Of a DNA stretch of 64,000 bases, positions 44,112 through 61,643 are shown in pieces. The notes under the pieces were generated by a model, which was not told the DNA's origin, ran no database searches, and saw nothing but the letters and a program-made list of their open reading frames with translations. The DNA is from an uncultured Magnetococcales bacterium (GTDB lineage Bacteria; Pseudomonadota; Alphaproteobacteria; UBA2136; JAPKEQ01): the NCBI GenBank assembly GCA_964015495.1, contig CAXHDG010000006.1, forward strand, positions 27,566-91,565, read 5' to 3'. The position numbers were made by a program, and so were the translations under genes. How positions within the stretch are numbered: the stretch's first letter is position 1; every line of letters starts with the position of its first letter.

Positions 44112-44126
44112 TGGGCATATATAGCT

Positions 44127-44234: not shown

Positions 44235-44240
44235 AATGGT

Positions 44241-46674: not shown

Positions 46675-49600
46675 CTATCCGACTACTTTCTCATATATAT
46701 GATTTTTAGCGTCTATATACTGATCATAAAAATGCTCAAATAAAGAGGCACACTTTGACATAAAAATATGCTCATCATAGGCATCAGGAAGTTTACTGTC
46801 GCAGATTTCCTCGATAGTATCTCTAACTTTAGCTCTGGAAGATTGTTTCTTCCTCCAGTCATAGACTAACTTTTCCGCTTTGAGCGTCTCTAATAACTCT
46901 TTTGCTGTCTCCTTAACCACCTCGATATCCTTTTTAGACATCTTTGGTTCAGGCTTGGTTAATATATCAAAAAGAACTAATTCTTCCTCAGTTAGGTTTT
47001 CTTTAATGTGCCTATGTTCTTCTGCATCAAGATCTCTTGAGAATTTTACAAGTTCAAGAAATATTTTTTCTAGGTCAATATTACCAGAGTTATAGTCTGC
47101 TATAAGATTTTCAAATCTTTCAAGGTAGCTTTTTCTGTGTTTATTCGCCTCTAGCATGCTTGATAACCTTTTTCCTAGCGAGCTCTTGAGGCTTTCTAAT
47201 AGAGTTCTTTGATTTTCTTTATTGAAGAAGCGCTCTTGCAGTTCCTCAAAATCAATTTTAGCAAGATTGAATGGTGTTGTACCTGTGATTTGGTAGCTAT
47301 CGAGACTAACTGACTCATTGAGCAGCGTTTCCACCCTTTCAGCAAGACCTTCTATTTGCTGTTTGTTAATAGGGGTTTTTGTTATTTCGTATACCTTAGC
47401 TGTTAAGATCGTAACGATCAGGCTTTGCTTTAGGTAGCTTTCGGCTCTAACATCAGGCAATACGGCCTTGAGGGATTTTTGTAGGTGTGAGGTTAATTCT
47501 AAAAACTTCTGTTTTGAATCTTCAGTGTGCAAAATTCGATCAACTGCATCATCAGTCATTTGAATTTTTACAAAGTTATCTTTTTCTACATAAATTTCTT
47601 GAGTACTAATAGATTGCTTAGATAAGTATTCATCCATTTTTTTCGATGATTGACTAAGCATAGTAACAAGTGCCTCTTTATCTTCAACAGGACTGTGTTC
47701 TCCCTCACCACCATTACTAGGGTTGCCATATATGGCTAGTGCTTTTTGTAGAGATTTAAAAATACCTATATAGTCAACAATGATCCCACTAGGCTTCTCA
47801 CCCCATACCCTGTTCGCTCGTGCAATTGTTTGCATAAGCGTATGGTCTTTTAGGATTTTATCGAGATATAGAGTAGAAATTGCGGGAGCATCAAAACCTG
47901 TAATCCACATTGCACATACAAATACAATTCTTAGTGGATCTTCTGGCTTTTTAAACTTAACATCAAGCTCTTCTTTATTGCTTCTTTCCCTATGAGGCTT
48001 AATATCTACGCCTTTTTTCTTAAGCGTTTCTATTTCATTTTGAGCAGAAGAAACAATAACAGCCATGTCTGTTTCTTCCATATATCGTACTTTATCCTCG
48101 ATAGAGGCTTTAATACTTGGGCTACAAGATAAAAGCTGTTTCTTTAAACCATCGATATAAGCTTGCCAATGCAATTTGACTTTATCATGCATTTTAATGG
48201 CTGTGGCTTTATCAATCGCTACATACATAGCCTTGCCCATAAACCCGCGATTCATAAAATGGTCAACTACATCTTTAGCAATGCTGTCTAATCTATGATC
48301 CCTGGTTATTAACTGGTATGTTGAGGCATATTCTTTTTCAAAACGCTCCTCTTCTTCGTCTGTTAAGCCTGCTTCAGAGATAATTTCTTTGATATCTTCT
48401 TCAAGATTGTCATTGATAATTTGGAGGTCTGGTCTACGATTTTCATAAAATAGCTCAACCGTGGCTTTATCCTCTACAGACTCTGCATAGTTATAGGTAC
48501 TAATATAATCTCCAAATACCTCCTTAGTGCGCTCATCACCTCTCATGAGAGGCGTACCAGTAAATGCTAGAAAAGATGCGTTAGGAAGGGCTTTACGCAT
48601 GTTCATTGCCAGGACATTATATTGACTACGGTGTGCTTCATCTGTGATGACAATAATATCACCTCGATCGGAAAGCATTTCGTACTCCTGACCTTTTTCC
48701 TCTGTACCAAATTTTTGAATCATTGTGAATACGTTGCGGTGATCTTCAGTCAAAAGCTTTTTCAAATCAGCTCTATTTTTAGCTCTAACACCTTTTTCTG
48801 TAACGGCACCTGAATTAACAAAATTTTTATAAATTTGGCTATCTAAATCTTCTCGATCAGTGACGATGAGAAACGTCCAATTCCCTGGAATTTTGCGAAG
48901 AATTTTTTGAGTTAAAAAGACCATGGAGAAGCTTTTACCACTTCCTTGAGTATGCCAGAACACGCCAAGCTTTCCATGCTTATTGTCTTTATCTTTAACG
49001 CTTCCAACAGCATCGTTAACTCCGAGAAATTGGTGATTTTTAGCTAAAATCTTTGCTGTACCACCCTTACTGTCCATATATAGGATAAAGTTTTCTATAA
49101 GGTCTAAAAGGTTCCCTTTCTCTAAAGCACCTTTAATCACTGTATCAAGTGAGATAAGGCCCTGCTCACCATCAGAGTTGATTTTTTTCCAATCTGCAAA
49201 GTGCTCCCAAGCGGATGTAATTGTTCCCAGCCTGCTTTCTGTGCCATTAGAGACAACAATAAAAGCGTTATGCCAAAAAGCTTGTGGGATAGCTTCCTTG
49301 TAATGCGTGATGTTGTCTTTGTAGGCATTTATAAGCTGCTTATGCGATGCCTTGAGTTCAATAAAGATAAGAGGAAGCCCGTTAATGAAAATAACCAAAT
49401 CTGCCCTGCAGTTATACATTTCGCCAGATATTTTGAACTGTCGCACAACAAGGAAATCATTATTATCTGGATTTTTCCAGTCAATTACGTTCACAACATC
49501 CTCTGTTTCGATGCCATTTTCATCTTTATAGGAAACAGTAATTCCATCTTTAATAAGCTTGTAGAGCTCTTTGTTTGCTGTAACAGGGTTAAGTGTGCTT

Positions 49601-49842
49601 TTCCCTTCGGAAAGGGCATAAATGGCTGAATCAATCGCCTCAATTGGAATATCAGGATTAATACTGGTTAAAGCATTACGTAACCTAGCAGGTAACACAA
49701 CTTCAGAAGGTATATTACGCTCAAAAAGAGATCCCTCGCCATACGTCTCACTGTTTGCATTCTCAGACGCATAACCCAGCTCTTCAAGCCGCTGTATCAC
49801 AGCAAGCTCTAGCGATTCTTCTGAAAAGTCATTTCTCGTCAT
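46675..49842 (-). CDS. hsdR: Type I restriction enzyme, R subunit
   Basis: 1055 aa with Walker A TQGSGKS and the DEAH box ITDEAHRSQ, in an operon with hsdM/hsdS. Confidence 0.9.
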   Translation of the reverse strand: MTRNDFSEESLELAVIQRLEELGYASENANSETYGEGSLFERNIPSEVVLPARLRNALTSINPDIPIEAIDSAIYALSEGKSTLNPVTANKELYKLIKDGITVSYKDENGIETEDVVNVIDWKNPDNNDFLVVRQFKISGEMYNCRADLVIFINGLPLIFIELKASHKQLINAYKDNITHYKEAIPQAFWHNAFIVVSNGTESRLGTITSAWEHFADWKKINSDGEQGLISLDTVIKGALEKGNLLDLIENFILYMDSKGGTAKILAKNHQFLGVNDAVGSVKDKDNKHGKLGVFWHTQGSGKSFSMVFLTQKILRKIPGNWTFLIVTDREDLDSQIYKNFVNSGAVTEKGVRAKNRADLKKLLTEDHRNVFTMIQKFGTEEKGQEYEMLSDRGDIIVITDEAHRSQYNVLAMNMRKALPNASFLAFTGTPLMRGDERTKEVFGDYISTYNYAESVEDKATVELFYENRRPDLQIINDNLEEDIKEIISEAGLTDEEEERFEKEYASTYQLITRDHRLDSIAKDVVDHFMNRGFMGKAMYVAIDKATAIKMHDKVKLHWQAYIDGLKKQLLSCSPSIKASIEDKVRYMEETDMAVIVSSAQNEIETLKKKGVDIKPHRERSNKEELDVKFKKPEDPLRIVFVCAMWITGFDAPAISTLYLDKILKDHTLMQTIARANRVWGEKPSGIIVDYIGIFKSLQKALAIYGNPSNGGEGEHSPVEDKEALVTMLSQSSKKMDEYLSKQSISTQEIYVEKDNFVKIQMTDDAVDRILHTEDSKQKFLELTSHLQKSLKAVLPDVRAESYLKQSLIVTILTAKVYEITKTPINKQQIEGLAERVETLLNESVSLDSYQITGTTPFNLAKIDFEELQERFFNKENQRTLLESLKSSLGKRLSSMLEANKHRKSYLERFENLIADYNSGNIDLEKIFLELVKFSRDLDAEEHRHIKENLTEEELVLFDILTKPEPKMSKKDIEVVKETAKELLETLKAEKLVYDWRKKQSSRAKVRDTIEEICDSKLPDAYDEHIFMSKCASLFEHFYDQYIDAKNHIYEKVVG

Positions 49843-49858
49843 AATTGATTACCTGTTG

Positions 49859-50731
49859 CTAAGTTCTATCTTCAAAGTAGTGCGTCACGATAAAATTTGC
49901 TAGTGTTTTTGATGTATTTACCGCCAGCAATGCATCTTTCTGCGTCGGTTCAAAAGTAATATTGTGTGAATCGCTCATACCGTGCCTTAAGAGGTTCATA
50001 CCTTGGCCCAGAGTATTAAACCCTTCTTCTAGCTTCTCATACCCCTTCTTAATCTTTAAGTCGAACCCATTAGGTAGCTTTAAAACGTCTAGAACTGTTT
50101 TGAGAAGCTTATCAAAATCCCCTCCATATCTCCCCCTTCTACCAGAGGGAATTTTATCGATTTGGATTTCTCTGAGAATCTGCTCTAGAAGTGAACGAGA
50201 ACTTGTAATGGCTCCTGAATAATCCCCCTCTAATATCCTGCCAACACATTTTTTATTATGTTCAGCAATCAGGTGATGCTGACCTTGCAAGTTCTCAGCA
50301 AAAAGACAATCATAGCTCACTAAACAATCTAGTAATGAATGTATTGAGTAACGTTCTAACGCTTCTACATAGATGATTTCATAATCATCCTCTATAAATG
50401 ATTCATTGATTTTAGCAACCAACTCTTCAGCAAGGTCTGAACAGACTAATATTGAGAGAAAATTTTCGGTAAAAACCCTTAATTCTCCAGTTCCATTCAA
50501 CTCAGATATCTTTAGCTTTGCATAACTGTTTATCTTGAAGTGTTTATTCGCATATAGTTGACTATTTTTTACCTCATCTACGCCTTCAAAAGCTTTGTCA
50601 TAGGTTTCAACCCTAACAGAAGTGCCATTTAAATACTGCTCAAACCCTTTTTTGGTTACATCAAGGCCAAAGCCTTCATCAGTCGTTAAGATTTTTGAAA
50701 GCCTATCAATGGATGCGTAACCTAATAGCAT
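49859..50731 (-). CDS. Abi_C (abortive infection C-terminus) domain protein embedded in the R-M operon
   Basis: The C-terminal half, EGDYSGAITSSRSLLEQILREI...LLRHGMSDSH...ALLAVNTSKTLANFIV, follows the Abi_C consensus pattern. Confidence 0.55.
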   Translation of the reverse strand: MLLGYASIDRLSKILTTDEGFGLDVTKKGFEQYLNGTSVRVETYDKAFEGVDEVKNSQLYANKHFKINSYAKLKISELNGTGELRVFTENFLSILVCSDLAEELVAKINESFIEDDYEIIYVEALERYSIHSLLDCLVSYDCLFAENLQGQHHLIAEHNKKCVGRILEGDYSGAITSSRSLLEQILREIQIDKIPSGRRGRYGGDFDKLLKTVLDVLKLPNGFDLKIKKGYEKLEEGFNTLGQGMNLLRHGMSDSHNITFEPTQKDALLAVNTSKTLANFIVTHYFEDRT

Positions 50732-51936
50732 TACATTTTAATTTCTAGGTTTGAAACGTCTAACTCACCAGAAATAAGCTTAGGTAATAGCATATCTCTA
50801 GTTCTTTCTAGGTTAAAATTACACTCTTTTAATTTATCCATTTGACTCAATAGATCAATGATTTTCAAATTATATTCTTGCTGTAAGTTTTCGCTAGGTA
50901 ATATTATTTCCTTACTTACCAGTTCTGACCAGTGACGTTTATACTCTTTTGTACTCACAAGGCTTGAAATTAAATAATATAAGAATGATGTTGGCATTGA
51001 TGATTTAAGCGGCACAAACGGAATAACATTTGCCCCTACAGAAAATGGCTTGATTAGGATTTGCATTTTACAAGTGTGGTCACCAAATATAATGATAGGG
51101 TTATCAGTGCTGGCGGCTTGGTCAGCCTTATTATTATGATAACCAAGGACATCATTAGTAGACTGGTCAATAACAGGAGTACTGCCAGAACTCCCTACAT
51201 TCTTTTGTGTATATTTCAAGCCCGCAGGTTTTCTTTTTAGAATACCTCCCACACTTTCACACGACCACCCTTCAGGAATAAGCCCAAGTTCAGACCCAAC
51301 AAATTTAGCACGTTCATGACCAGGGAATTTAAAATCAACAAACCAGTGTTTATAAAGTTTTTGCGCCACCTCTTCTAAAATTTGAATGCGCTTGTTGTTA
51401 TTTTCAATCAAATCATCATAAGCCGATAGAACTCCAGCGATTTTATTTTGGATTTTAATATCTTTTGGGTATGATATTTCAAAGCCTTCTAGGGACTCTT
51501 TTGTCAAGGCTTCACGTGTAGCACCACCTTGAGCAATGGATAGTAAACGTTGTTTGTTTTTACTGCTCACTAAAGAGTAATAGGCAAATTTAGAGAGTAT
51601 CTTGTCTTGATTCAACCTAATAATGGCTACATGCTGATTCACACGTGCAGGTAAAGCCTCTTCTGGAACTATACAGCAACGAGCAACTGAAGCTCCTGTA
51701 ATATTAAGCAGGACATCATTTTTCAGAACATTAACATTATCTAATTTTTTCGATTGTTTTTCATCTATACATGCTAAATCGTTCCATTTAAATGAATAAT
51801 CATGAACATTCATACTCCTGATTAAAAATACACCAACTTCCTTATAAGCCCCTTTACCTCCTGTAGGAGTAGCACCACTTCCAATCTTTAACGTTAAGCC
51901 TTTTAAAGTAGATGATTTCCATGCTTGCGTAGGCAT
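50731..51936 (-). CDS. hsdS: Type I restriction-modification specificity subunit
   Basis: 401 aa with two target-recognition halves separated by conserved helical spacers, located between hsdM and hsdR. Confidence 0.85.
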   Translation of the reverse strand: MPTQAWKSSTLKGLTLKIGSGATPTGGKGAYKEVGVFLIRSMNVHDYSFKWNDLACIDEKQSKKLDNVNVLKNDVLLNITGASVARCCIVPEEALPARVNQHVAIIRLNQDKILSKFAYYSLVSSKNKQRLLSIAQGGATREALTKESLEGFEISYPKDIKIQNKIAGVLSAYDDLIENNNKRIQILEEVAQKLYKHWFVDFKFPGHERAKFVGSELGLIPEGWSCESVGGILKRKPAGLKYTQKNVGSSGSTPVIDQSTNDVLGYHNNKADQAASTDNPIIIFGDHTCKMQILIKPFSVGANVIPFVPLKSSMPTSFLYYLISSLVSTKEYKRHWSELVSKEIILPSENLQQEYNLKIIDLLSQMDKLKECNFNLERTRDMLLPKLISGELDVSNLEIKM

Positions 51937-51938
51937 AG

Positions 51939-53510
51939 CTATACCCCCAATAATTTCTTAACATTATGTGAAATCTTACTTTCTAAATCATGTGCGTTTG
52001 AATTTAATCCTAGCAACTCATCATTCAACTCTTTGAGGCGTTCTTCGAAAATGTAATCTTCTTCTTCAGCCTCTGCTACATCCACATAACGGCCAGCGTT
52101 TAAGCTCCAGTCTTGTTTTTCAATAGCTTCTTTATCTACAACCTTACAAAGCCCTGCAATATCCCTGTATTCAAGGTTAGGGAACTCAGCTTCCAAGTCT
52201 TTTTTCTTTGTATGGTTAAACTCTAATGAGTCTTGGTCCCCCCTATAAAGCTTCACAATGTTAGCAATACGCTCCACATGAGCTTCTGTGAACTCTCTAT
52301 GCGCCCTATCAACCTGTTTGTAAATTTCACGTACATCTAAGAATAAAGTCTTATCAGCTCTGTCCGTACGTGGTTTACCATTATCAAAGAACCAGAGTGT
52401 ACAAGGGAGGGTTACATTGTGGAAGAAGTTTGAACCGACAGACACCATGACATCAACCACTCCACTTTGAATGATTTTCTTACGTATTTCTTGCTCTGAC
52501 TGCCTTGCATCACTTGCTGAGTTCGGCATAACAAAACCTGCACGGCCATCCTCAGCTAGTGCTGTATAAAAATCCTGAATCCACAGATAGTTTGCATTAT
52601 CAACCTTTGGAATACCCAGACTATAACGAGGGTCACCCTTTACACGGTCTTTATCGATACCACTTACGTTAAATGGAGGATTGGCCATTACAAAGTTAAA
52701 CTTACCAACACTGTTGTGCATATCCTCATAGAAGGTGTTACCCTGCTTGATGTCACCCTCTAAGCCGTGAACAGCAAGGTTCATTTTACCAAGCTTCACC
52801 GTTTCTTCTGTTTTCTCCTGCCCATAAATAGTGATTTTATCATTAGGGTTGAATTTATGACGCTTAACAAATTCAGCGGACTGAACAAACATACCACCCG
52901 AACCACAAGCAGGGTCAAATACTGAGCCTTGTATGGGCTTAAGAATTTCTACAATAAGACGAACAATAGAGGTTGGAGTGAAAAATTCACCGCCACGTTG
53001 ACCTTCAGCTCCAGCAAACTTGCCAAGGAAGTATTCATAGATCTTACCAAAAGCATCTCCTTCAAGTTCTCCAATTTTCATTTCAGAGAACGTTTTAAGG
53101 AGTGCTATAAGGAGTTCTTTTTCAATACGGAGGTAGTTTTTAGGTAGAACATCTTTCAATGAAGGGTTACCAGATTCAATCTTACTCATAGCTTCATTGA
53201 TGATTTTACCGATATTATCACTTTCAGTGAGTGATCGCAGGTAAGAAAAGCGAGCTTCTTCAGGTAGGTATAACACACCCTCTGCATGGTACTTAACCTT
53301 TTCATCGGTTGCAGCCCGACGGCGGCTTGATACTTTTTCGCCTGCTTTATCAAACTTCTCTTTAGCTTGGGTAAACTTAAAGTCTGCATATCTCAGGAAG
53401 ATCAGCCCTAAAACAGGTGTTGAGAATTCTGCAGTTTTAAGATTAGATGCAGCTCTTAGCTGATTAGCAGCCGCCCACAAATCATTCTTTACTTTATTGA
53501 TATCACTCAT
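51939..53510 (-). CDS. hsdM: Type I restriction-modification N6-adenine DNA methyltransferase subunit
   Basis: Motif [12 protein letters not shown] and motif IV MANPPFN. Confidence 0.9.
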
Positions 53511-53757: not shown

Positions 53758-54549
53758 TTATTCCATAACCTCTTTAATATATTCCCTATGAATCGCATGA
53801 CCATCAATCGTCCATGAGTTGGGAACATTAATCTCATCATCAGTATAAGGGATGCCAAAGTAGTTATAGTACTCTTCTAATAATAGGTAGAACGTTCGGT
53901 TCATTTCACCTTTGGGGTAAGGAATAAAAATCGCTTTCTTTTTGGCAAGAGTATATAGAGCATCCTCAATATAATGGATTTTGCCTGCCACATCATCGAA
54001 ATGCTCAGGGTTTTCTATAGGCCTCATAATCGCATCGAAAATATCATCATATGAAAGACTGTTAAACCATTCAGATAGGTTAAACTTTTTAATAACATGC
54101 CTTACAAAGGCATCTCCCTGACTTGGTTTATTGGTAGCGCTGCAATATCGAGGCGTAACCAAACCATATCGCTCATCTTCAGTGATATCAAAACTCTGTT
54201 TGCTAGGAATAGCAATATCTTCCTTAGAGTATTCAATGCCATAAAAAATATAAAATTCTTCCAGAATGCATTTATATAGTAACTGAACTGCACCTTGTCC
54301 ATCAGGGATATACACGCCCCGCATGCCATGATACCTATGGAAAGTCTCTTCTAGGTCGCTCACATGATCAGAAATATCCAGAAAATCTTCAGCACCAATA
54401 GGTAAGAAAAATTCAACGAGCTCAACTATCTCATCAAAACCCACCCCCAACTGTTGCTCTAATTTAAACTTTATAACAATGTGCTCTGCGAAGTCTAAAA
54501 TACTGTCTAATTGCGCCTTTTTATCTTCTGGTATATCTCCGTATTTCAT
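53758..54549 (-). CDS. Hypothetical protein with internal duplication, co-transcribed downstream of the radical-SAM gene
   Basis: It starts 15 nt after the rSAM gene stop. The two halves share the pattern F-D-------E----------IP-------L----LEE-Y--YGI-Y---DI--P. Confidence 0.5.
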   Translation of the reverse strand: MKYGDIPEDKKAQLDSILDFAEHIVIKFKLEQQLGVGFDEIVELVEFFLPIGAEDFLDISDHVSDLEETFHRYHGMRGVYIPDGQGAVQLLYKCILEEFYIFYGIEYSKEDIAIPSKQSFDITEDERYGLVTPRYCSATNKPSQGDAFVRHVIKKFNLSEWFNSLSYDDIFDAIMRPIENPEHFDDVAGKIHYIEDALYTLAKKKAIFIPYPKGEMNRTFYLLLEEYYNYFGIPYTDDEINVPNSWTIDGHAIHREYIKEVME

Positions 54550-54564
54550 ACTCTTTCCCTACTC

Positions 54565-55527
54565 TTACTGCTCATCTATTAAAAATTTTATCTTTGATCG
54601 GGATTTAATAGCTGGCGCCACTTGCATAAGGTCATCTTTTACAGAGTCTTTTATGTGCCCGGATACCAACATAGGCTCTTTAACCAACTCACCATCGCTG
54701 TTTTCATAAAAGTTCTCAGGGCTGGTGATTTGTCCAAATGCATCTACCATGACATAGTGATTTTTGCGCATGGCATTAGTTTTTGCTTGCACCTCAAAGC
54801 GATAGTGATTTTGCCTAATTAAATCTAAGGCAGATAAAAAATGGTCATCACTTAGCATGAAGTGCTTTCGGTTTTTATAACCCAACTCTCCAATAGGCAT
54901 ATACTGAAAGAGCTGAACGTTTTTAACGCTTGAATACCTATTTAAAATATCTAGTATTTTATATACTCCGTGAACATTCCCTTTGTGAACCACGGTATTA
55001 ATATCTAATGGTACACCATCCTTTTCAGCCATCTCTATAATTTGGAGAGACTCCTCAAATAAAGACTTTCTACCCTTTCTAAAATATGAAACAGATTCTT
55101 GGTCCCAACCATCTAGAGGAATTGATAAGCAATCAACTAATCTAGATAGGTCCTTAAGGCTAACAGCAGGCATATCCATCTTAACTGGGTAAATTGCTTT
55201 ATTTGCTCCCAAAAAGACAGTACCAACAGTATCAACCTTAACCCGCAGCCCTAAATCCTTACAAAGTTTAATAACTTCAATCACGTGCGGATAAGTAAAG
55301 GGGTCGCCTCCACATAAAGTGACCTGACCTAAAGGTTGTTTAGCCATAACCTTTCTTAGAAATTTGGAAATTTCATCAACAGTGAGTATTGAACTAGAGC
55401 TACTGCACCCCTTTAAACCCTTAAGATTTTCTTTGGGAAAATTAAAATAGCATCCTTTACAAACAACAGGGCAAGACAAGCCAATTGCTAAGGATATTTT
55501 ATTAAAAATTATATCATCTAAAACCAT
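54565..55527 (-). CDS. Radical SAM enzyme, viperin-like (candidate prokaryotic viperin)
   Basis: CPVVCKGC (CxxxCxxC) and a GGDPF SAM block. The region after the core aligns by eye with human viperin (INTVVHKGNV, LFQYMPIGE, FMLSDDHF, KTNAMRKNHYVMVDAFG). The MVLDD start is preferred over the ORF-track start at 55632. Confidence 0.6.
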   Translation of the reverse strand: MVLDDIIFNKISLAIGLSCPVVCKGCYFNFPKENLKGLKGCSSSSSILTVDEISKFLRKVMAKQPLGQVTLCGGDPFTYPHVIEVIKLCKDLGLRVKVDTVGTVFLGANKAIYPVKMDMPAVSLKDLSRLVDCLSIPLDGWDQESVSYFRKGRKSLFEESLQIIEMAEKDGVPLDINTVVHKGNVHGVYKILDILNRYSSVKNVQLFQYMPIGELGYKNRKHFMLSDDHFLSALDLIRQNHYRFEVQAKTNAMRKNHYVMVDAFGQITSPENFYENSDGELVKEPMLVSGHIKDSVKDDLMQVAPAIKSRSKIKFLIDEQ

Positions 55528-55626: not shown

Positions 55627-56247
55627 ATGCAATACTTTGATGTAACAAAACTGGAAGATCTACCTCCCCTTCAGGAAGGCTATCGATATTTTGACTTTAT
55701 TGGAGGAACAAAAGAGTACAGATGTTTCCGTGCACCAATAGATCTGTCTAGAGGCACTTTTATGAACCAGCATGGTCACCTTCTTGATGAGTGCGTTCAG
55801 CCTATTTATAAACATAATGGTATCACAATTTCGCAAGATACTTCATGTCCTTTACCAGGGTTTTATATAGTTAGCCCCGACAAACAATTTAGATCAATTG
55901 ATGAAGTTGATCCCATTACCCACCAAAGACTTTCTTTCCTAACCCGTGAAATTAGAAAATTAATGAGAGAACACCTAAATATCCAGTTCACACATATTTA
56001 CTATGAAGAAAAAGCCAATAAAGGCTGTCATGTACACTACTGGATATTACCGATTAATGATATTAAGCAGAACCCAAGGCTCTACAAATTTGATGTTAAG
56101 GACTATATGGACCAGTTTACATTCAGAGATAATAAACAAACTATTTTAGATTTTAATAAAAAGATGAAAGACGCTATCGAGAAAAGCAATCTCTACCAGA
56201 GAGATCAAATCCTTGAGAAAGGCCTGAATCAGCTGGAAATTTTTTAA
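55627..56247 (+). CDS. HIT-superfamily-like protein with a degenerate histidine triad
   Basis: GCHVHYWILP sits where HIT proteins carry H-x-H-x-H-x-x, and an upstream LPGFYIVSP strand resembles the nucleotide-binding strand. ATG 55627 is preferred. Confidence 0.4.
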   Translation: MQYFDVTKLEDLPPLQEGYRYFDFIGGTKEYRCFRAPIDLSRGTFMNQHGHLLDECVQPIYKHNGITISQDTSCPLPGFYIVSPDKQFRSIDEVDPITHQRLSFLTREIRKLMREHLNIQFTHIYYEEKANKGCHVHYWILPINDIKQNPRLYKFDVKDYMDQFTFRDNKQTILDFNKKMKDAIEKSNLYQRDQILEKGLNQLEIF

Positions 56248-56831
56248 GAAATTTCTTCATAGTTTCCATTTAAGTCTGCCCATATTGCATGACCATCTTT
56301 TAAAGGGTAGTAGTTCTGCTCTCTTAACTTACCTATAAACTCATCAACAAAATGCGGAACGATCGAAAACGGTAAAATACCGTAACCAGATGTGTTTAAA
56401 AGTTTTATATTATTTTCATCCATACCAATATCCCCTAACGCCTGAATATCCAGCCCAAGCACAGAACTTCCTGCAGAGACCCCAATATAAAGGCCGCCGC
56501 CTTTTAAAAATTTTTGGATATTTTCTTTGGTATGTTTGTTTTGGAAACTCTTAAGGAGCCTGAAGGTATTTCCACCGTTTACATACAAGATATTAAACTG
56601 AGTCAAATCTACTAAAGGATCATTTTCAAAATCTATAAACTGTACGCCCTGCACACCAAAACTCGTGAGCTGCTCTTTCGCAAGCATGGCCCACTCGTTT
56701 TTTTCTTTTTTTGATGATGCTGTTGTCACAATAGCTGCTCGACCTTGTACCCTCAATTGCACAAGCTGTTTTGCGTGATTATAAACACTCGCATGAGAAA
56801 ACCCTGTTGATGTTAAGAGTATGTTTTGCAA
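56244..56831 (-). CDS. Peptidase S51 (dipeptidase E/PepE-like)
   Basis: ILYVNGGNTFRLLK, the nucleophile block LYIGVSAGS, and VPHF matching PepE Ser/His positions. Confidence 0.7.
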   Translation of the reverse strand: MQNILLTSTGFSHASVYNHAKQLVQLRVQGRAAIVTTASSKKEKNEWAMLAKEQLTSFGVQGVQFIDFENDPLVDLTQFNILYVNGGNTFRLLKSFQNKHTKENIQKFLKGGGLYIGVSAGSSVLGLDIQALGDIGMDENNIKLLNTSGYGILPFSIVPHFVDEFIGKLREQNYYPLKDGHAIWADLNGNYEEIS

Positions 56832-56863: not shown

Positions 56864-56892
56864 TTGACACTTATAACGAACTCTCTTAGATT
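56864..56892 (+). promoter_or_regulatory. Candidate sigma70-type promoter for the AlaRS-like/kinase operon
   Basis: TTGACA (56864-69), a 17-nt spacer, then TAGATT (56887-92). Confidence 0.35.
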
Positions 56893-56945
56893 GAGCAAAC
56901 TTTCTTAACTTCTCGTACCATTTTCATACTAATAAGGGGCCGACA

Positions 56946-57917
56946 ATGGCTCAACTATCCAAGCAACAGGCGCACAAGTGCCTTGAGCAAGCCTGCTCTC
57001 AATTTAGAACCTTCTTTGAAGGTAAAAATTATCAACACCGAAAATCAGCTCTTATGAGCTCTGGTATTGACCCAACCGTTAGGTTTGTTGGGTCACATAT
57101 GAACACACTTAAAGCAGATATGAATAACAGAGACATACATTCACCTATCTACATTGTTCAGCCCTGCTTAAAAACAAAAAATATTAGCTCTTATGAGGAT
57201 CCTCACTTTTACCCACGCTATGGATCGTATTATATGAGCTTAGGATTACTGGCACCAGCAAACTGCCTTGAGCAGATTTGTTTAGACACCCATGAGTACT
57301 TACTTTCATGCAAGAGCATTCATGATCAAAACATCTCTTATTTGGTATCTTCATCAGATACGGAGATGCTTACCGCATTAAAGCGCTCCCTTCCGAAAGG
57401 TATCATTCATGTAGATACTCTCCCTGAACACAAATATGATCACCAATACGGCATTAATCGTGTTTCAGGTAGAGTTATCAGAGTCATGCTCCAAAATGAC
57501 TCTGATAAAGAAGCAGAGATGATCGCAGTCATTGCTTTACTCACACATGAAGAGGAAGGGCATCTTTTTACAGAGGCCACAATTGGTATTGCTTCTATTC
57601 TTAAGCTCACCGAAAATCTGAGCAATGTTATGGATGTTTATCCTCTCTCACCTCTTGGAAATTCCTGTCTTCATTTGCAGGTCGAGGATATTCTGGTTGC
57701 AACTATCGAGCTTTATCAAGAAGGTCTCCGGCCTTCCAATAAGCACAATAGGAACAGGATACTCAAAAAGTATATCAAGCACCTTTTTGCACTTTGTGAG
57801 AAACTGCAGCTCACGCCAGAGAGTATCAAAAACAGAATTGTGGAATATGAGGCTTCAACAGGACAGCAGGAAACTATTTCAGCTACTCTTATTGAAGACC
57901 TTTTTAAAGCGAAATAA
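56946..57917 (+). CDS. Stand-alone, highly divergent alanyl-tRNA synthetase catalytic-core homolog (323 aa)
   Basis: Collinear by eye with the E. coli AlaRS N-terminal domain. F--FFE-K, IDPTVRFVGSHMN (vs NDPTLLFTNAGMN), QPCLK (vs QRCVR) and GLRPSNKHNRNRILKKYIK (vs GVMPSNENRGYVLRRIIRR) line up. No tRNA-binding, editing or C-Ala domains are present. Confidence 0.5.
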   Translation: MAQLSKQQAHKCLEQACSQFRTFFEGKNYQHRKSALMSSGIDPTVRFVGSHMNTLKADMNNRDIHSPIYIVQPCLKTKNISSYEDPHFYPRYGSYYMSLGLLAPANCLEQICLDTHEYLLSCKSIHDQNISYLVSSSDTEMLTALKRSLPKGIIHVDTLPEHKYDHQYGINRVSGRVIRVMLQNDSDKEAEMIAVIALLTHEEEGHLFTEATIGIASILKLTENLSNVMDVYPLSPLGNSCLHLQVEDILVATIELYQEGLRPSNKHNRNRILKKYIKHLFALCEKLQLTPESIKNRIVEYEASTGQQETISATLIEDLFKAK

Positions 57918-57990
57918 AGCTTACCCTTTTATGGGTAGGCTTTTTTACTTTTTCATATATGATATACCTCTACTTAAAGGGGCAAGAAAG

Positions 57991-58635
57991 ATGAATTCAG
58001 CACTATTTATTGTTATTGAGGGTATGGATGGTGTTGGCAAAACAACGACAATTCAACAACTCGCTTATAATATGAATGCCAAAGTATTAAGGCATATGGA
58101 TTCTCATGAACTTGAAACATTAGAGCAGCTTATTTCAGACAAGGCACCATCTGCTGACATTCATAACTTTGCACTTGAATGCTTACACAAAAAGTCTGAA
58201 GAAGTTAACAAGCTTAACCAAAACGATACTCCTGTTATCATGGATAGATACATCTATTCAGCAATCGCGTATTACCTGGCAAATGCTAAACTTATTGACG
58301 AGCCTATTAAAGCATTTAATATTGATGCCCTACAGCTCAGACAGCCCGACGTTGCATTTTATCTATATTTAGACTCTGATTCCCACCTAAAAAGAATCCA
58401 GGAAAGAGGCACACAAAACGATGCCAATGACCAAAAAATTATTTCTAACAACCTATACCGAGATCAACTCAGGCAATACTTTTTAAAGTTTACAGATGAA
58501 CAGCACTTCAAAGCAGTCGATATAGAAAACAAAACAGTCCAAGAAGTATGCAAAGAAATAGAAATCCAATCACTTGAAATTAAGCCCAATGAACAGCATA
58601 CTAACCTCGCTGGCTTAGGGAAATACTATGAATAA
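57991..58635 (+). CDS. Thymidylate kinase family nucleotide kinase (Tmk/CMPK2-like)
   Basis: P-loop IVIEGMDGVGKTT and a DRYIYSAIAY block. ATG 57991 has an AAAGGGG RBS, and the long ORF-track N-extension (57625) is rejected. Confidence 0.7.
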   Translation: MNSALFIVIEGMDGVGKTTTIQQLAYNMNAKVLRHMDSHELETLEQLISDKAPSADIHNFALECLHKKSEEVNKLNQNDTPVIMDRYIYSAIAYYLANAKLIDEPIKAFNIDALQLRQPDVAFYLYLDSDSHLKRIQERGTQNDANDQKIISNNLYRDQLRQYFLKFTDEQHFKAVDIENKTVQEVCKEIEIQSLEIKPNEQHTNLAGLGKYYE

Positions 58636-58650
58636 AGAAAAGTACTTTGC

Positions 58651-58872
58651 ATGACAGAGCAAGATAGAAGAAAAGCGCACCAGCCCACAGATGCTAAGCT
58701 CTACAAAGAGTTTAAAACCGGTAAGCGCATTAAGCACGAGCGCCGATCTGACGAACTCTCTCGTTTGCAAGAAATTCATTCACAAAAAGTGCTCTGGTGG
58801 AAAGTCATCACAGCTTGCTTTGCGCTCAATATTATTTTTATTGGGCTCGCTATATGGGGAATAAAAAATTGA
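58651..58872 (+). CDS. Small single-TM protein (73 aa)
   Basis: A basic N-terminal half followed by one C-terminal TM helix. It overlaps the next gene's start. Confidence 0.4.
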   Translation: MTEQDRRKAHQPTDAKLYKEFKTGKRIKHERRSDELSRLQEIHSQKVLWWKVITACFALNIIFIGLAIWGIKN

Positions 58873-60542
58873 TTGATAAAAAGTATCTGGGCTGGATACA
58901 AGCATTTTTTAGTGTCCTTGTTCTTTGGGGACTTAACAATGTAATGATTGGGTATAGCGCCCAAATTTTAGATGCCAACTATATCCTTTATACATGCTGT
59001 GCTTTTGCAAGCTGCTCTTTTACATTACTCCTGATCAGCGGCCCAGGGAAACTTGGTAAAGAAACCATACGCTCTATTGATACGTGGCTATTTGGGTTGG
59101 TCATGCTCCTTGGATATATTGTAACCCTCGCACTCTTTTCTATTGTTTCATCAACAGAAGGATCCCTCTTGCAGCGCATAAGCCTATTTTTTGGGATATT
59201 TGCAAGTTGGATTTTCTTACACCGTTCGCCAACGTTCAATCAACTTGCAGGACTTTTACTTGTTCTTATTGGTGTTGCAATTATATGCAAAGATATACCA
59301 GAAGAGTCTCGAGGCATTGTTTACTTTTTAATGCTTCTAGAAGGTATGATTCTCAGTGCTCGCATGTTCATTGCCGAAATGCACAGACCACACAACCACG
59401 CCCTCAACTCTAACGAAGGCTATCGTTCTAGATGCCGTGTTGTTGGCTTTGTCATGTTTATCATGAGCATGTTTTTCATGGCCGTTTCTTTTATTATCTC
59501 TGTTCTTAATACTGTCGCCCCTCTGCCTTTTGAATCTAATATCATCCCTACACTCAGCTCGATGACACATACCCCTACACTTGTTGCAGGCATTGTTGCA
59601 GGTGTATGCCTTGTAGCCCCTCTTCGTGTTATCGAATTTTCAAGCGCCTCTCTCATTAAAACCGAAAATTTTTTAGCGGTGGCAGCCCTTTCATCTCTTG
59701 CAACGTACTTCTGGGAGTGGCTGCTTTACCCTATTACAGGCATGCCCCTTAAAAACTTTAACAGTGGAGAGATGATTGCAATTGCCCTTATCACTTTTGG
59801 CTCAATGATTGCTGTTTTAAAACACAGTAAAGCAAAAGATGCATCATGGAAGAATCATTTAGAAATAAAACCTCATGACCCTGAGTTGATATCAGATAGC
59901 AGGGATATTTTTGCGGAAACGCTCACGCACTTTGATGGGTCCCTTAAAAAGGCATCAGATGCGCTTAAACTTCCCCAAAGCACATTAAAGATTATTCTAC
60001 AAGACCATGAACGTATTTATGCCTTCAAAAACCTTGATAAAATACAAAGACACTTCAGACAGAATGTTGCTGGACAAGATGCTCTGACAGGTCTTCTAAA
60101 TAGAAATGCCTTTAAAAGGCTCTCAACAGACCTCTTAGACACATGCAAGAGCTGCACACTTCTTTATATCGACCTAGATAAGTTCAAGCCGGTTAATGAT
60201 ACATACGGCCATGATGCAGGTGATGCCATTCTTACCCAAACAGCGATCCGTCTGCAAAAACAGCTCCCTGAAGGCTCGCTAATTTGCCGCATGGGTGGAG
60301 ATGAGTTTTGCGCCATCCTCCCTCATAAGGCAACACAAGCAAAACACATCACGCCGTTACAAAAAGCAATACAAGCTCCTGTAGCCATTCAAGGCATCTC
60401 AGAAGAGATAAGTGTCGGTGCTTCTGTCGGCATTGCACACTACCCTAAAGATGGAGAGACACTAAATGACCTTATCTCGCATGCTGATGAAGGTATGTAC
60501 GGGGTTAAGCATTCAAGAGACACAAAAACCCGTAAGGCCTAA
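58854..60542 (+). CDS. Membrane diguanylate cyclase: EamA/DMT-like ~10-TM domain fused to GGDEF
   Basis: The C-terminal domain has LTGLLNRNAF, DLDKFKPVNDTYGHDAGD and RMGGDEFCAIL. The N-terminal half is polytopic. The start at 58854 (MGNKK) is inferred. Confidence 0.75.
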   Translation: MGNKKLIDKKYLGWIQAFFSVLVLWGLNNVMIGYSAQILDANYILYTCCAFASCSFTLLLISGPGKLGKETIRSIDTWLFGLVMLLGYIVTLALFSIVSSTEGSLLQRISLFFGIFASWIFLHRSPTFNQLAGLLLVLIGVAIICKDIPEESRGIVYFLMLLEGMILSARMFIAEMHRPHNHALNSNEGYRSRCRVVGFVMFIMSMFFMAVSFIISVLNTVAPLPFESNIIPTLSSMTHTPTLVAGIVAGVCLVAPLRVIEFSSASLIKTENFLAVAALSSLATYFWEWLLYPITGMPLKNFNSGEMIAIALITFGSMIAVLKHSKAKDASWKNHLEIKPHDPELISDSRDIFAETLTHFDGSLKKASDALKLPQSTLKIILQDHERIYAFKNLDKIQRHFRQNVAGQDALTGLLNRNAFKRLSTDLLDTCKSCTLLYIDLDKFKPVNDTYGHDAGDAILTQTAIRLQKQLPEGSLICRMGGDEFCAILPHKATQAKHITPLQKAIQAPVAIQGISEEISVGASVGIAHYPKDGETLNDLISHADEGMYGVKHSRDTKTRKA

Positions 60543-60544: not shown

Positions 60545-61422
60545 CTACCTACAGTGCCATAAAAGCTGATAGTATTTAATAGCTTCAGGGTTAGGCTGAG
60601 GAAGACGCCCTTCAACTAAGCACATATAGCTACTTTCGGGTGGAGAGAGCTGAGGTATAGACTCTTCTCTTATGCCGTAGTTTAGCACAAACTGCTTCCA
60701 CGCTTCTTTTAAGTTTGAAACCCTTTGTAGGAATATCAACCCTTCTTCTATTTCCTGCTCTCGTGCAATTGTGTATAGAAAGAGGTTTTCTCTTATCTCA
60801 CATGCAACAATCATAGAGACAAGTGCCCCTTTTAAATCTGCTGCGGGGTTGTAGCTGACTCGACCCGTCACGATGCCATAACGAAATATTGCTGTGCATA
60901 TTTGTAGAATACGTTGAGAAATCTCAGTCGTACCCTTCTTCTCTATTGCCCTTATAAGATTCAAAACATCCATAGGCTTTATAGTTTGAATAGGCATAGC
61001 GCCAAGTTTAGGTACTAAGTGCAGCTCTATTCGGCGCCAAATTTTAGCAACATGCTTCTCTGACCATTTATTTAAGCTGTGTCGTGCCACTCCTTAACAA
61101 TAAGTGAGAATGAGTTTCCTGCCGCTATCACAGCATCAGTCTTTTCTTCTTTTCTGTGCTGAGTAGGGTTAATGCCTTTATCTAGTAATTTACGTGCTTC
61201 AAATTTTTTCTCTCTTGTTTCTTGCAGGGATATTTCTGGGTACTTCCCAAATGCAATAAGCTTCTCACTTCCATGAAAGTAATATTTCATTCGCCATAGC
61301 ATTGAACCACTCTTATTAATCTGGATAAAGGTACCATCACAATCAAACAGCTTGTAGGGATTTTCTTTTGCTTTAGCACTTTTGATAGCAATATTCGTTA
61401 GCGGCATAGGGCTACCTTTCAT
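60545..61422 (-). pseudogene. P4-type tyrosine integrase remnant (frameshifted, catalytic domain missing)
   Basis: 61072-61422 encodes the DUF4102 arm-binding domain (PYKLFDCDG...LWRMKYYF). 60545-61090 continues in another frame through the SAM-like core-binding domain up to NPAADLKGAL, then switches to unrelated sequence. No R-HxxR-Y catalytic residues are present. Confidence 0.7.
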
Positions 61423-61558
61423 TTGACACCCCTAACAGCACCCCTAAATGAGTGAGCTTGCAATAGATAGCAAGAGATGCCAAAAGACAGGATCCTTGGC
61501 TCTTACTGTTGTTTTATATTGATTTTTAGATTTTATGAGACTTAGAGAGACCAATTAT

Positions 61559-61643
61559 TGGTGCCGTCGAAAGGACTCGAACCTTCACACCTTGCGGCAC
61601 TAGCACCTCATGCTAGCGTGTCTACCAATTCCACCACGACGGC
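61559..61643 (-). tRNA. tRNA-Leu (GAG), type II with a long variable arm
   Basis: Hand-folded: acceptor GCCGTCG/CGACGGC, anticodon stem CTAGC/GCTAG with loop ATGAGGT, long variable arm, T-arm GAAGG-TTCGAGT-CCTTT and an encoded CCA. Confidence 0.85.

What the first reader, a model, noticed from the sequence alone, without database searches (positions are those of the whole stretch)
56946..57917. Stand-alone, strongly diverged AlaRS catalytic-core paralog on a mobile island
The 323-aa protein is collinear by eye with the aminoacylation domain of AlaRS. Matching blocks are FFE-K, IDPTVRFVGSHMN, QPCLK and the very characteristic G--PSN--R---L------ helix. It stops before the tRNA-recognition, editing and C-Ala domains. 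Several canonical residues are substituted, for example QRCVR to QPCLK, and the GPCGPC zinc-like block is not visible. Truncated aaRS paralogs are known to act as amino-acid ligases towards non-tRNA acceptors in other families. An AlaRS-core version next to a viperin-like enzyme and a nucleotide kinase suggests amino-acid activation onto a nucleotide or small molecule.
Basis: partly seen in the sequence, partly recalled or inferred. Interest (0 to 1): 0.7.

Follow-up and report, generated by a model that had tools for sequence, protein, structure and literature searches.

The report
Stand-alone AlaRS-core paralog in nucleotide cassette
The gene really encodes a shortened, remodelled copy of the catalytic core of alanyl-tRNA synthetase; it belongs to a large, unnamed protein family that almost always sits beside enzymes known to destroy aminoacyl-nucleotide poisons, so it most likely helps build such a compound rather than charging tRNA.

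Summary
ORF 56946-57917 (+, 323 aa) is intact. A 137-member family profile matches only AlaRS among solved structures (E=2e-20). A confident model (pLDDT 95.8) has AlaRS catalytic fragments as its top 19 fold matches (TM about 0.75).

It is not an AlaRS. It ends about 80 residues into the tRNA-recognition domain. The motif-3 arginine is lost. The alanine-binding Asp is Glu. In this protein's subclade the motif-2 Arg is Lys, and the Glu/Asn pair on the adenylate strand is lost.

It belongs to an unannotated family of at least 575 clusters. An S66 (MccF-type) peptidase lay within 900 bp in 30 of 34 genome loci, and the two are fused in one. Extra GlyRS copies often lie nearby.

In the window the family gene sits with an S51 peptidase, a HIT-fold protein, a radical-SAM enzyme and a dTMP-kinase-like kinase. 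All lie in a low-GC island at tRNA-Leu.

The closest characterised analogue is AcmF from the ascamycin pathway, a truncated AlaRS-like enzyme that uses aminoacyl-tRNA and carries the same Asp-to-Glu change.

Best reading: it forms the aminoacyl bond of an aminoacyl-nucleoside or -nucleotide antimetabolite. This is a new variant of a recently discovered kind.

The parts
56946..57917 (+). AlaRS catalytic-core paralog, 323 aa. Residues 1 to about 240 are the class II core; residues about 241-321 are the first four helices of the tRNA-recognition domain.
   Evidence: ORF. Profile against PDB: AlaRS takes the 15 best places, best E=2.4e-20. AF2 model pLDDT 95.8. Foldseek top 19 matches are all AlaRS. 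Key residues are K76, Y164, H166, R176, V195, E210, P263-S264-N265.
56864..56892 (+). Promoter-like site (TTGACA, 17 nt spacer, TAGATT) 54 nt upstream of the ATG. An AAGGGG ribosome-binding site lies at 56935-56940.
   Evidence: Best-scoring site (10 of 12) in the 8.2-kb scan; sequence read. This is a consensus match only.
57916..57943 (+). Terminator-like hairpin (11-bp stem followed by a T-run) that overlaps the stop codon, between this gene and the kinase.
57991..58635 (+). dTMP-kinase-like nucleotide kinase, 214 aa.
   Evidence: Pfam Thymidylate_kin 1.5e-18. NCBIfam DTMP_kinase 91.5 bits against a cut-off of 83. PADLOC PDC-M51B 1e-22 and VakA 3e-16. Start chosen from the gene call in L005 and the RBS.
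56244..56831 (-). S51-family peptidase (PepE/MccG class), divergent from the AlaRS-like gene.
   Evidence: Pfam Peptidase_S51 3.9e-24. NCBIfam PepE 1e-19, below its cut-off. GVSAG, PH and EE motifs at 117, 159 and 192. S51 MccG enzymes cleave aminoacyl-nucleotides (PMC9239234).
55630..56247 (+). HIT-fold protein, 206 aa, with the altered motif H-V-H-Y-W (third His replaced by Trp).
   Evidence: A 73-sequence profile hits HIT proteins (3lb5, E=0.0018). AF2 pLDDT 95.5. All the best-scoring Foldseek matches (E <= 1e-3) are HIT superfamily: Rv2613c, Fhit, Hint. Orthologues lie next to AlaRS-like genes in L004, L041 and L042.
54565..55527 (-). Radical-SAM enzyme, 320 aa, CxxxCxxC, in the viperin/MoaA/PqqE neighbourhood.
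   Evidence: Pfam Radical_SAM 7e-12. PADLOC pVip 3e-18. NCBIfam viperin 55.9 bits against a cut-off of 180. Profile against PDB: PqqE 6e-10, viperin-like 7n7h 6e-8, viperin 5vsl 4e-6. Orthologues are paired with the HIT-like gene in L004, L041 and L125-L127.
53758..54549 (-). 263-aa protein of unknown family, an internal tandem duplication, directly downstream of the radical-SAM gene.
   Evidence: No Pfam, NCBIfam or PADLOC hit. The two halves align with score 128 against 29 +/- 4.5 for shuffles.
58651..60542 (+). 73-aa membrane ORF followed by an EamA-transporter/GGDEF fusion, downstream of the kinase. A possible exporter; membership of the cassette is uncertain.
   Evidence: Pfam EamA 1e-9 and GGDEF 6e-37. 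Same gene order in L005-L007. Sister loci carry TLC or MFS transporters instead.
60545..61643 (-). Island edge: a P4-type integrase broken into two ORFs, then tRNA-Leu(gag).
   Evidence: NCBIfam integrase domain 2.9e-22 and 3.8e-4. tRNA-Leu at 61559-61643.

Best explanation
The protein is a functional, non-tRNA-charging descendant of the AlaRS catalytic core. It is a member of a divergent subclade of a large unannotated family. It most likely uses the old alanyl-adenylate pocket to hold a nucleoside or nucleotide acceptor and joins an amino acid to it, producing an aminoacyl-nucleoside(tide) antimetabolite that mimics an aminoacyl-adenylate.

The donor is more likely an aminoacyl-tRNA, as in AcmF, than an amino acid activated with ATP.

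Proposed roles of the neighbours in the window:
- The radical-SAM/HIT-fold pair and the kinase would prepare the modified nucleotide.
- The S51 peptidase (S66 in relatives) would cleave the aminoacyl-nucleotide bond, protecting the producer or tuning the product.
- A transporter would export the product.

Shown: the fold, the homology, the residue changes and the gene associations. Inferred: the chemistry, the donor, the acceptor and the biological role.
For: 1. AlaRS-type core established.

2. The protein is under selection as an enzyme-like protein. The family has 575 clusters at E<=1e-3. Near-invariant residues are D42, K56, Q72, S94, Y164, H166, G169, G175, R176, E210, D248 and Y276, and all are kept in this protein. 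An identical copy occurs on 6 contigs.

3. The active site is remodelled in the same direction as AcmF. The alanine-amino-binding Asp is Glu (E210), a change that is essential in AcmF. The motif-3 Arg is lost (PMC12945691).

4. Gene associations mirror the ascamycin trio AcmF/AcmE/AcmD plus the MFS transporter AcmC:
- An S66 peptidase lies within 900 bp in 30 of 34 genome loci, and there is one in-frame fusion.
- S66 also accompanies most of the 79 metagenome loci.
- Full-length extra GlyRS copies occur in about 15 loci, twice as pairs.
- Transporters are present in sister loci.

5. S66 (MccF) and S51 (MccG) are the two peptidase classes shown to cleave aminoacyl-nucleotide warheads (PMC9239234). 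Here S51 takes the place of S66.

6. Two unrelated lineages of the family assemble the same parts list: radical SAM, P-loop kinase, HIT, AlaRS-like and peptidase. One is the window with L004 and L041; the other is the alphaproteobacterial loci L009-L014 and L048-L050.

7. The HIT fold of the neighbour is confirmed. From my own knowledge, HIT enzymes act on acyl-adenylates and nucleoside phosphoramidates.
Against: - There are no biochemical data for any member of this family.
- I could not obtain the AcmF sequence, so kinship with AcmF beyond shared features is untested. AcmF has Asn to Gln, whereas this protein has Val.
- The protein lacks most of the tRNA-recognition domain, so aminoacyl-tRNA binding is not assured.
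- No extra aaRS gene lies in the window's cassette.
- The motif-2 Arg to Lys change and the loss of the acidic/Asn pair could mean loss of catalysis rather than a new substrate.
- The window genes are divergently arranged. The AlaRS-like gene has its own promoter-like and terminator-like signals, so co-regulation is not shown.
- The radical-SAM/HIT pair also occurs without any AlaRS-like gene.
- The S51 protein could be an ordinary dipeptidase.
Confidence: 0.45

Rival explanations
1. The core still activates an amino acid with ATP to make an aminoacyl-adenylate, then passes it to a non-tRNA acceptor. This would resemble the amino acid:carrier-protein ligases, AsnA or PoxA-type paralogs of other class II synthetases.
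For: The main family keeps the motif-2 Arg (125 of 128), the acidic residue (D192, 114 of 128) and the Asn (125 of 128) of the adenylate-binding strand, plus the conserved DPxxxFxGxxxxxK block. A new near-invariant Arg (R176) could stand in for the motif-3 Arg. The main cassette also carries a second truncated class II core (tRNA-synt_2), which fits tRNA-independent ligase chemistry.
Against: The motif-3 Arg is lost family-wide and the Asp is Glu. In this protein's subclade the Arg is Lys (9 of 9), D192 is non-acidic and N195 is Val, Ala or Thr. AcmF, with similar losses, does not form adenylate (PMC12945691).
Confidence: 0.22
2. The cassette is an anti-phage defence system of the prokaryotic-viperin type. 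The kinase and radical-SAM enzyme would make a chain-terminating ddh-nucleotide. The AlaRS-like, HIT and S51 proteins would modify it, store it or detoxify it. This concerns the biological role and can coexist with either chemistry above.
For: The radical-SAM enzyme matches PADLOC pVip models (3e-18) and the kinase matches VakA and PDC-M51B. Viperin-like structures are among the top PDB profile hits. The genes lie in an island next to a type I RM system and an AbiJ-like gene. Twelve per cent of bacterial viperins have an adjacent nucleotide kinase (bioRxiv 10.1101/2023.09.13.557418).
Against: The viperin model score is 55.9 bits against a curated cut-off of 180, and PqqE scores better than viperin. 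Sister loci carry exporters (TLC, MFS) and lie in biosynthesis-like surroundings with glycosyltransferase, deacetylase and SDR genes. The wider family sits mostly in CPR bacteria beside extra GlyRS copies, which suggests a translation-targeting compound with self-resistance. PADLOC has no model for the AlaRS-like, HIT or S51 proteins.
Confidence: 0.25
3. It is a non-catalytic pseudo-enzyme. It would either bind and sequester an aminoacyl-nucleotide or act as a regulatory or scaffold subunit, as HisZ does for HisG.
For: Four canonical catalytic positions are changed in this subclade. It is tightly paired with a hydrolase that could be the real catalyst.
Against: Many polar residues lining the former active site are invariant across a very divergent family, including new ones (H166, R176, Y164). 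This is typical of an enzyme with a changed reaction. AcmF shows that such a remodelled core can be catalytic.
Confidence: 0.08

Closest known systems
AcmF, the AlaRS-like aminoacyl-tRNA-dependent transferase of ascamycin biosynthesis (Zheng et al. 2024, reviewed in PMC12945691; 370 aa in PMC4257720)
   Same: - A truncated stand-alone AlaRS core of similar size.
- The amino-group-binding Asp is replaced by Glu.
- Canonical ATP and alanine activation residues are lost.
- The former adenylate site is proposed to hold a nucleoside acceptor.
- It is clustered with a hydrolase that removes the aminoacyl group (AcmE, compared with S51/S66 here), with an extra aaRS copy (AcmD, compared with GlyRS in relatives) and with a transporter.
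   Different: - AcmF keeps the motif-2 Arg and has Asn to Gln. This protein has Lys and Val.
- This protein is about 50 residues shorter at the C-terminus.
- Its partners differ: radical SAM, HIT and dTMP-kinase-like, not the sulfamate machinery.
- The hydrolase is a serine peptidase of family S51 or S66, not an alpha/beta hydrolase.
- No family member among the top 137 has Gln at the Asn position, so AcmF is at best a distant relative.
Canonical alanyl-tRNA synthetase catalytic fragment (e.g. 1riq, 3hxu)
   Same: The fold and the order of all core elements. Shared blocks are DPTxxF, QxCxR/K, the core beta-strands and the first helices of the tRNA-recognition domain, including the PSN motif.
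   Different: About 15% identity. It lacks the GPCGP loop, the motif-3 Arg, the Asp, most of the tRNA-recognition domain, the editing domain and C-Ala. It is therefore not expected to charge tRNA-Ala.
Microcin C-type aminoacyl-nucleotide systems, with immunity enzymes MccF (S66), MccG (S51) and MccH (HIT)
   Same: The same three classes of enzymes known to cleave aminoacyl-nucleotide warheads accompany the AlaRS-like family: S66 in most loci, S51 and a HIT-fold protein in the window (PMC9239234).
   Different: No MccB-type (ThiF-like) adenylyltransferase and no precursor peptide gene were seen. The bond-forming enzyme would be an aaRS paralog instead. The HIT protein here has a non-canonical motif.
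Prokaryotic viperin (pVip) with an associated kinase
   Same: A small radical-SAM enzyme beside a nucleotide kinase in a defence-type island, with matches to the PADLOC pVip and VakA models.
   Different: The radical-SAM enzyme scores well below the curated viperin threshold. Its constant partner is a HIT-fold protein, not a kinase.

Membership tests
Alanyl-tRNA synthetase (canonical) | AlaRS-type class II catalytic core fold | tested here: met
   Foldseek top 19 matches are all AlaRS, TM 0.69-0.75. Profile E=2.4e-20.
Alanyl-tRNA synthetase (canonical) | Motif-2 arginine (last R of QRCVR) and motif-3 arginine (GxGxER) for ATP binding | tested here: not met
   Motif 2 is QPCLK, with Lys76. The motif-3 position is Ser217 here and Thr in the family consensus.
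Alanyl-tRNA synthetase (canonical) | Asp that binds the alanine amino group, and Asn on the neighbouring strand | tested here: not met
   The Asp is Glu210 and the Asn is Val195.
Alanyl-tRNA synthetase (canonical) | Complete tRNA-recognition domain, editing domain and C-Ala | tested here: not met
   The protein ends at residue 323, aligned to about residue 321 of A. aeolicus AlaRS. Only four helices follow the core.
AcmF-type AlaRS-like aminoacyl transferases | Stand-alone truncated AlaRS core of about 370 aa | tested here: met
   323 aa here and typically 320-390 aa in the family. AcmF is 370 aa (PMC4257720).
AcmF-type AlaRS-like aminoacyl transferases | Asp to Glu at the amino-group-binding position (Glu232 is essential in AcmF) | tested here: met
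   E210 is present in 130 of 137 family members and in this protein (PMC12945691).
AcmF-type AlaRS-like aminoacyl transferases | Asn to Gln, and a retained motif-2 Arg that contacts the acceptor | tested here: not met
   Val195 and Lys76 here. The main family has Asn and Arg. No member has Gln.
AcmF-type AlaRS-like aminoacyl transferases | Sequence or phylogenetic grouping with AcmF | not tested
All family members found are named 'hypothetical protein'.
AcmF-type AlaRS-like aminoacyl transferases | Aminoacyl-tRNA-dependent transfer to a nucleoside acceptor | not testable with these tools
   This needs biochemistry.
Prokaryotic viperin system (neighbouring radical-SAM enzyme) | Score above the curated viperin model threshold | tested here: not met
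   NCBIfam viperin_w_prok scores 55.9 bits against a cut-off of 180. The PADLOC pVip E-value of 3e-18 has no curated cut-off.
Prokaryotic viperin system (neighbouring radical-SAM enzyme) | CxxxCxxC radical-SAM core with viperin as the nearest structural relative | tested here: inconclusive
   The motif is present. In the PDB profile ranking PqqE comes first, a viperin-like enzyme second and MoaA third.
HIT superfamily (neighbouring 206-aa protein) | HIT fold | tested here: met
   All the best-scoring Foldseek matches (E <= 1e-3) are HIT proteins. Profile hit 3lb5, E=0.0018.
HIT superfamily (neighbouring 206-aa protein) | HxHxHxx histidine triad | tested here: not met
   The motif is H-V-H-Y-W here and N-V-H-Y-W in most homologues. 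The central His is invariant and the third position is Trp in at least 90%.
S51 peptidases of the MccG type (neighbour) | S51 domain with a Ser-His-Glu triad | tested here: met
   Pfam 3.9e-24. GVSAG, PH and EE at the expected spacing. The triad positions come from my own knowledge of PepE.
S51 peptidases of the MccG type (neighbour) | Membership of clade V and cleavage of aminoacyl-nucleotides | not tested
   No MccG sequence was at hand. Activity needs an assay.

The most novel reading that the evidence does not exclude
The cassette may be a peptide-independent route to a microcin-C-like warhead. The radical-SAM enzyme and kinase would supply a modified nucleoside triphosphate. The Trp-variant HIT enzyme would turn it into a nucleoside 5'-phosphoramidate through a His-NMP intermediate. 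The AlaRS-like protein would then acylate that nitrogen with an amino acid, perhaps glycine, taken from aminoacyl-tRNA. The product would be a non-hydrolysable aminoacyl-adenylate mimic that poisons an aaRS. The S51 or S66 peptidase would be the matching antidote. More broadly, the roughly 575-cluster family would be a widespread class of aaRS-derived 'aminoacyl-nucleotide synthases', especially in CPR bacteria and intracellular bacteria.
Probability: 0.12. Interest if true: 0.85.

Novelty: new variant of a known kind. Interest (0 to 1): 0.68.

Why it matters
Truncated synthetase paralogs are a recurring source of new chemistry, yet AlaRS had only one characterised example, AcmF (2024).

This gene belongs to a large and entirely unannotated AlaRS-core family. 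Its gene neighbourhood is strikingly constant: a peptidase of the classes that cleave aminoacyl-nucleotides, phosphohydrolases and extra GlyRS copies.

If the family makes aminoacyl-nucleotide antimetabolites, it would point to many new aaRS-inhibitor pathways in CPR bacteria and in the intracellular or predatory lineages where the partner HIT-like gene was found. It would also offer a new enzymatic way to make aminoacyl-adenylate mimics.

The window's version adds a radical-SAM/HIT pair. It sits in a defence-type island, so it could also link such compounds to phage defence.

Tried and rejected
- A single-sequence search of the PDB gave nothing relevant.
- Single-sequence Pfam gave only E=0.042. 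Profiles were needed.
- PADLOC and NCBIfam have no model for the protein.
- The 137-sequence alignment was too diverse for the locus finder (error). A 30-sequence alignment worked.
- A split or housekeeping AlaRS was rejected. The catalytic residues are changed, no partner half is present, the gene is on an island, and it has its own family with hundreds of members.
- The subclade profile, used on metagenome contigs, returned only main-family loci.
- I tried to tie the HIT-like protein to HIT by sequence with 4 homologues. This failed. It succeeded only with 73 homologues and a structure model.
- I tried to name the organism. The ribosomal protein L11 cluster gave only 'Pseudomonadota bacterium'.
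- The viral structure library gave only giant-virus AlaRS.
- Literature searches found no paper linking AlaRS-like proteins with viperins or with this cassette.
- The window's radical-SAM, kinase and S51 proteins are not detectably orthologous to the radical-SAM, kinase and S66 proteins of the alphaproteobacterial cassette. That parallel is one of composition, not descent.
Full report
**1. Observation**

The window has an intact ORF at 56946-57917 (+, ATG, 323 aa). On its own it barely touches the Pfam AlaRS model: tRNA-synt_2c, E=0.042, residues 19-78. It finds nothing relevant in the PDB.

Three homologues at 31-35% identity gave a profile whose only significant PDB hits were AlaRS catalytic fragments, at E=1e-5 to 4e-4. 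A weaker second segment was collinear with these.

An exhaustive profile search found 575 clusters at E<=1e-3 and 226 at E<=1e-30. Most members are 320-390 aa. A 137-member profile matched A. aeolicus AlaRS (1riq) at E=2.4e-20, over profile positions 18-304 and AlaRS residues 6-321. The 15 best-scoring distinct PDB sequences are all AlaRS; four unrelated chains follow at E >= 0.02.

The AlphaFold2 model is confident (pLDDT 95.8, pTM 0.92). Its top 19 Foldseek matches are all AlaRS catalytic fragments (TM 0.69-0.75, E about 1e-15 to 1e-12). GlyRS-alpha and other class II enzymes follow.

The by-eye collinearity is therefore real. One correction is needed: the protein keeps the first four helices of the tRNA-recognition domain (residues about 241-321), including the PSN motif. 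It lacks the rest of that domain, the editing domain and C-Ala.

**2. What has changed in the core**

This mapping uses the HMMER alignment to A. aeolicus AlaRS and column counts over 137 members.

| AlaRS feature | Main family (128 reps) | This protein's subclade (9 reps) |
|---|---|---|
| Motif-2 Arg | Arg in 125 | Lys in 9 |
| Acidic residue of the adenylate-binding strand (ExWN) | Asp in 114 | non-acidic (Met here) |
| Asn of the same strand | Asn in 125 | Val, Ala or Thr (Val here) |
| Asp that binds the alanine amino group | Glu, near-invariant | Glu (E210 here) |
| Motif-3 Arg | absent | absent (Ser217 here) |
| GPCGP loop | GRNFN | GRVIR here |

New near-invariant residues appear: Y164, H166 and R176. 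The subclade members are P0001, P0003, P0015, P0023, P0027, P0070, P0089, P0115 and P0144.

This pattern fits an enzyme with a re-specified pocket better than a decaying gene. Identical copies of the protein occur on six contigs from several samples.

From my own knowledge, E. coli AlaRS fragments shorter than about 461 residues do not charge tRNA. A 323-aa protein is therefore not expected to be an AlaRS.

**3. Surroundings in the window**

The window is chromosomal: rpoBC, rplKAJL, uvrD, gyrA and recO are present. The organism is an uncultured Pseudomonadota bacterium, on an 885-kb scaffold.

From about 46.7 kb to 61.6 kb the GC content falls to 0.36-0.40. This stretch holds:

- a type I RM system with an AbiJ-like gene wedged inside it;
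- the cassette described below;
- a P4-type integrase broken into two ORFs;
- tRNA-Leu(gag).

The cassette has these genes:

| Coordinates | Strand | Product |
|---|---|---|
| 53758-54549 | - | 263-aa internally duplicated protein |
| 54565-55527 | - | radical-SAM enzyme |
| 55630-56247 | + | 206-aa HIT-fold protein |
| 56244-56831 | - | S51 peptidase |
| 56946-57917 | + | AlaRS-like gene |
| 57991-58635 | + | dTMP-kinase-like kinase |
| 58651-58872 | + | 73-aa membrane ORF |
| 58854-60542 | + | EamA-GGDEF fusion |

The AlaRS-like gene has the best promoter-like site in the region, an RBS, and a strong terminator-like hairpin right after its stop codon.

The HIT assignment needed depth. Four homologues gave nothing. 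Seventy-three homologues gave HIT proteins as the top PDB hits. A confident model matched only HIT-superfamily structures among its best-scoring hits (E <= 1e-3): Ap4A phosphorylase Rv2613c, Fhit and Hint. Its motif is H-V-H-Y-W. The central, nucleophilic His is invariant and the third His is replaced by Trp.

The radical-SAM enzyme is 'viperin-like' only loosely:

- PADLOC pVip gives 3e-18.
- NCBIfam viperin gives 55.9 bits against a cut-off of 180.
- In PDB profile searches PqqE ranks above the viperin-like enzymes and MoaA.

**4. Relatives elsewhere**

*Main family.* I examined 34 loci from species-representative genomes and 79 from metagenomes. They come mostly from CPR/Patescibacteria. 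A few come from gamma- and alphaproteobacterial MAGs, a Calothrix plasmid and an archaeon.

The dominant cassette is HD phosphohydrolase, SAM methyltransferase, AlaRS-like, S66 peptidase, then a truncated tRNA-synt_2 core.

- S66 lies within 900 bp in 30 of 34 genome loci.
- In L032 the two proteins are fused in frame as a 692-aa product.
- Other members carry fused GNAT, receiver, methyltransferase or HD domains.
- Full-length GlyRS genes lie next to the cassette in about 15 loci, twice as pairs.

*Alphaproteobacterial type* (L009-L014, L048-L050). The order is radical SAM, P-loop kinase, canonical HIT, AlaRS-like, S66. This is the same parts list as the window. However, the radical-SAM, kinase and peptidase proteins are not detectably orthologous to the window's.

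*The window's subclade.*

- L004: GlyRS fragment, AlaRS-like, HIT-like, TLC transporter, radical SAM.
- L041: AlaRS-like, HIT-like, radical SAM, MFS transporter.
- L042: S66 fragment, AlaRS-like, HIT-like.
- L043: TLC transporter, AlaRS-like.

The radical-SAM/HIT-like pair, orthologous to the window's, also occurs without any AlaRS-like gene. Those loci have other biosynthesis-like surroundings (L125-L127). The pair is therefore a core module and the AlaRS-like gene is an add-on.

Where a source names its organism, homologues of the HIT-like protein come from Babeliaceae, Rickettsiales, Alphaproteobacteria and Bdellovibrionota.

Every family member found carries the name 'hypothetical protein'.

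**5. Mechanism**

The only characterised truncated AlaRS-like enzyme is AcmF, from the ascamycin pathway.

- It is 370 aa (PMC4257720).
- It lacks the ATP and alanine activation residues.
- It has Asn to Gln and Asp to Glu changes, and the Glu is essential.
- It transfers the alanyl group of Ala-tRNA to the sulfamate nitrogen of a nucleoside held in the old adenylate site.
- Its cluster also encodes a hydrolase that removes the alanyl group (AcmE), an extra resistant AlaRS that supplies Ala-tRNA (AcmD) and an MFS transporter (PMC12945691, PMC4257720).

The family studied here shows the same Asp to Glu change and the same kind of company: a hydrolase, an extra aaRS and a transporter. The hydrolases are S66 (MccF) and S51 (MccG), the two peptidase classes shown to cleave aminoacyl-nucleotide warheads (PMC9239234).

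I therefore favour a role as the aminoacyl-bond-forming enzyme of an aminoacyl-nucleoside(tide) antimetabolite pathway. The donor is more likely an aminoacyl-tRNA than an ATP-activated amino acid, and this holds most strongly for the window's subclade. The radical-SAM/HIT pair and the kinase would prepare the nucleotide. The S51 peptidase would be the antidote.

All of this is inference from residues and gene associations. No step is shown biochemically.

The main weaknesses are:

- most of the tRNA-recognition domain is missing;
- the window has no aaRS gene in the cassette;
- Lys76 and Val195 could equally mean lost activity;
- the window genes are loosely arranged.

**6. Rivals**

It is possible for the main family and less likely here.
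- A pVip-type defence system. This concerns the biological role and is compatible with either chemistry. The island context favours it. The low viperin score, the exporters and the biosynthesis-like sister loci count against it.
- A non-catalytic binder or scaffold.
- A housekeeping or split AlaRS. This is rejected.

**7. Novelty and verdict**

The protein is not an AlaRS. It resembles AcmF in how it probably works, but membership of AcmF's lineage could not be tested. It represents a large unannotated family, and within it a distinct subclade tied to a radical-SAM/HIT module. I rate it a new variant of a recently discovered kind, of clear interest to people working on aaRS evolution, nucleoside natural products and defence islands.

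Noticed in passing
window 53758-54549 (-): A 263-aa protein with no family match, made of two homologous halves of about 115 aa each (local score 128 against 29 +/- 4.5 for shuffles). It lies directly downstream of the radical-SAM gene.
   Followed up: partly
window 46675-53510 (-): A type I restriction-modification operon (hsdR, hsdS, hsdM) has an AbiJ-like / Abi_C gene (49859-50731) inserted between hsdR and hsdS.
   Followed up: no
window 60545-61422 (-) and 61559-61643 (-): A P4-type integrase is broken into a 116-aa ORF and a 181-aa ORF beside tRNA-Leu(gag). The island is probably no longer mobile.
   Followed up: partly
window 58651-60542 (+): A 73-aa membrane ORF is followed by a fusion of an EamA transporter domain to a GGDEF diguanylate cyclase domain, just downstream of the kinase. 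The same order is seen on other contigs (L005-L007).
   Followed up: no
L032 5245-7323 (+): An in-frame fusion of an AlaRS-like domain and an S66 peptidase (692 aa) in a Parcubacteria genome. This argues that the two proteins work together.
   Followed up: partly
L021, L084 and about 13 other loci: Full-length GlyRS genes lie next to the AlaRS-like/S66 cassette. L021 and L084 each have two copies within about 10 kb. This suggests a resistant or supplying GlyRS and perhaps a glycyl product.
   Followed up: partly
L119-L122: In hot-spring metagenome contigs every cassette gene except S66 is split into 2-3 ORFs under the standard bacterial code. This could be an alternative genetic code or gene decay.
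   Followed up: no
L125, L126, L127: Orthologues of the window's radical-SAM and HIT-like genes form an adjacent or near-adjacent pair with no AlaRS-like gene. In L127 the pair lies beside a glycosyltransferase, a PIG-L deacetylase, GDPD and a class II aaRS gene.
   Followed up: partly
P0043, P0063, P0066, P0130 (family members elsewhere): The AlaRS-like domain is fused to an N-terminal GNAT acetyltransferase, a response-regulator receiver, a C-terminal SAM methyltransferase or a C-terminal HD domain.
   Followed up: no
window 39893-45486 (-): An RND efflux operon (outer-membrane factor, CusB/CzcB-like adaptor, ACR_tran pump) with GC of about 0.50 abuts the low-GC island.
   Followed up: no
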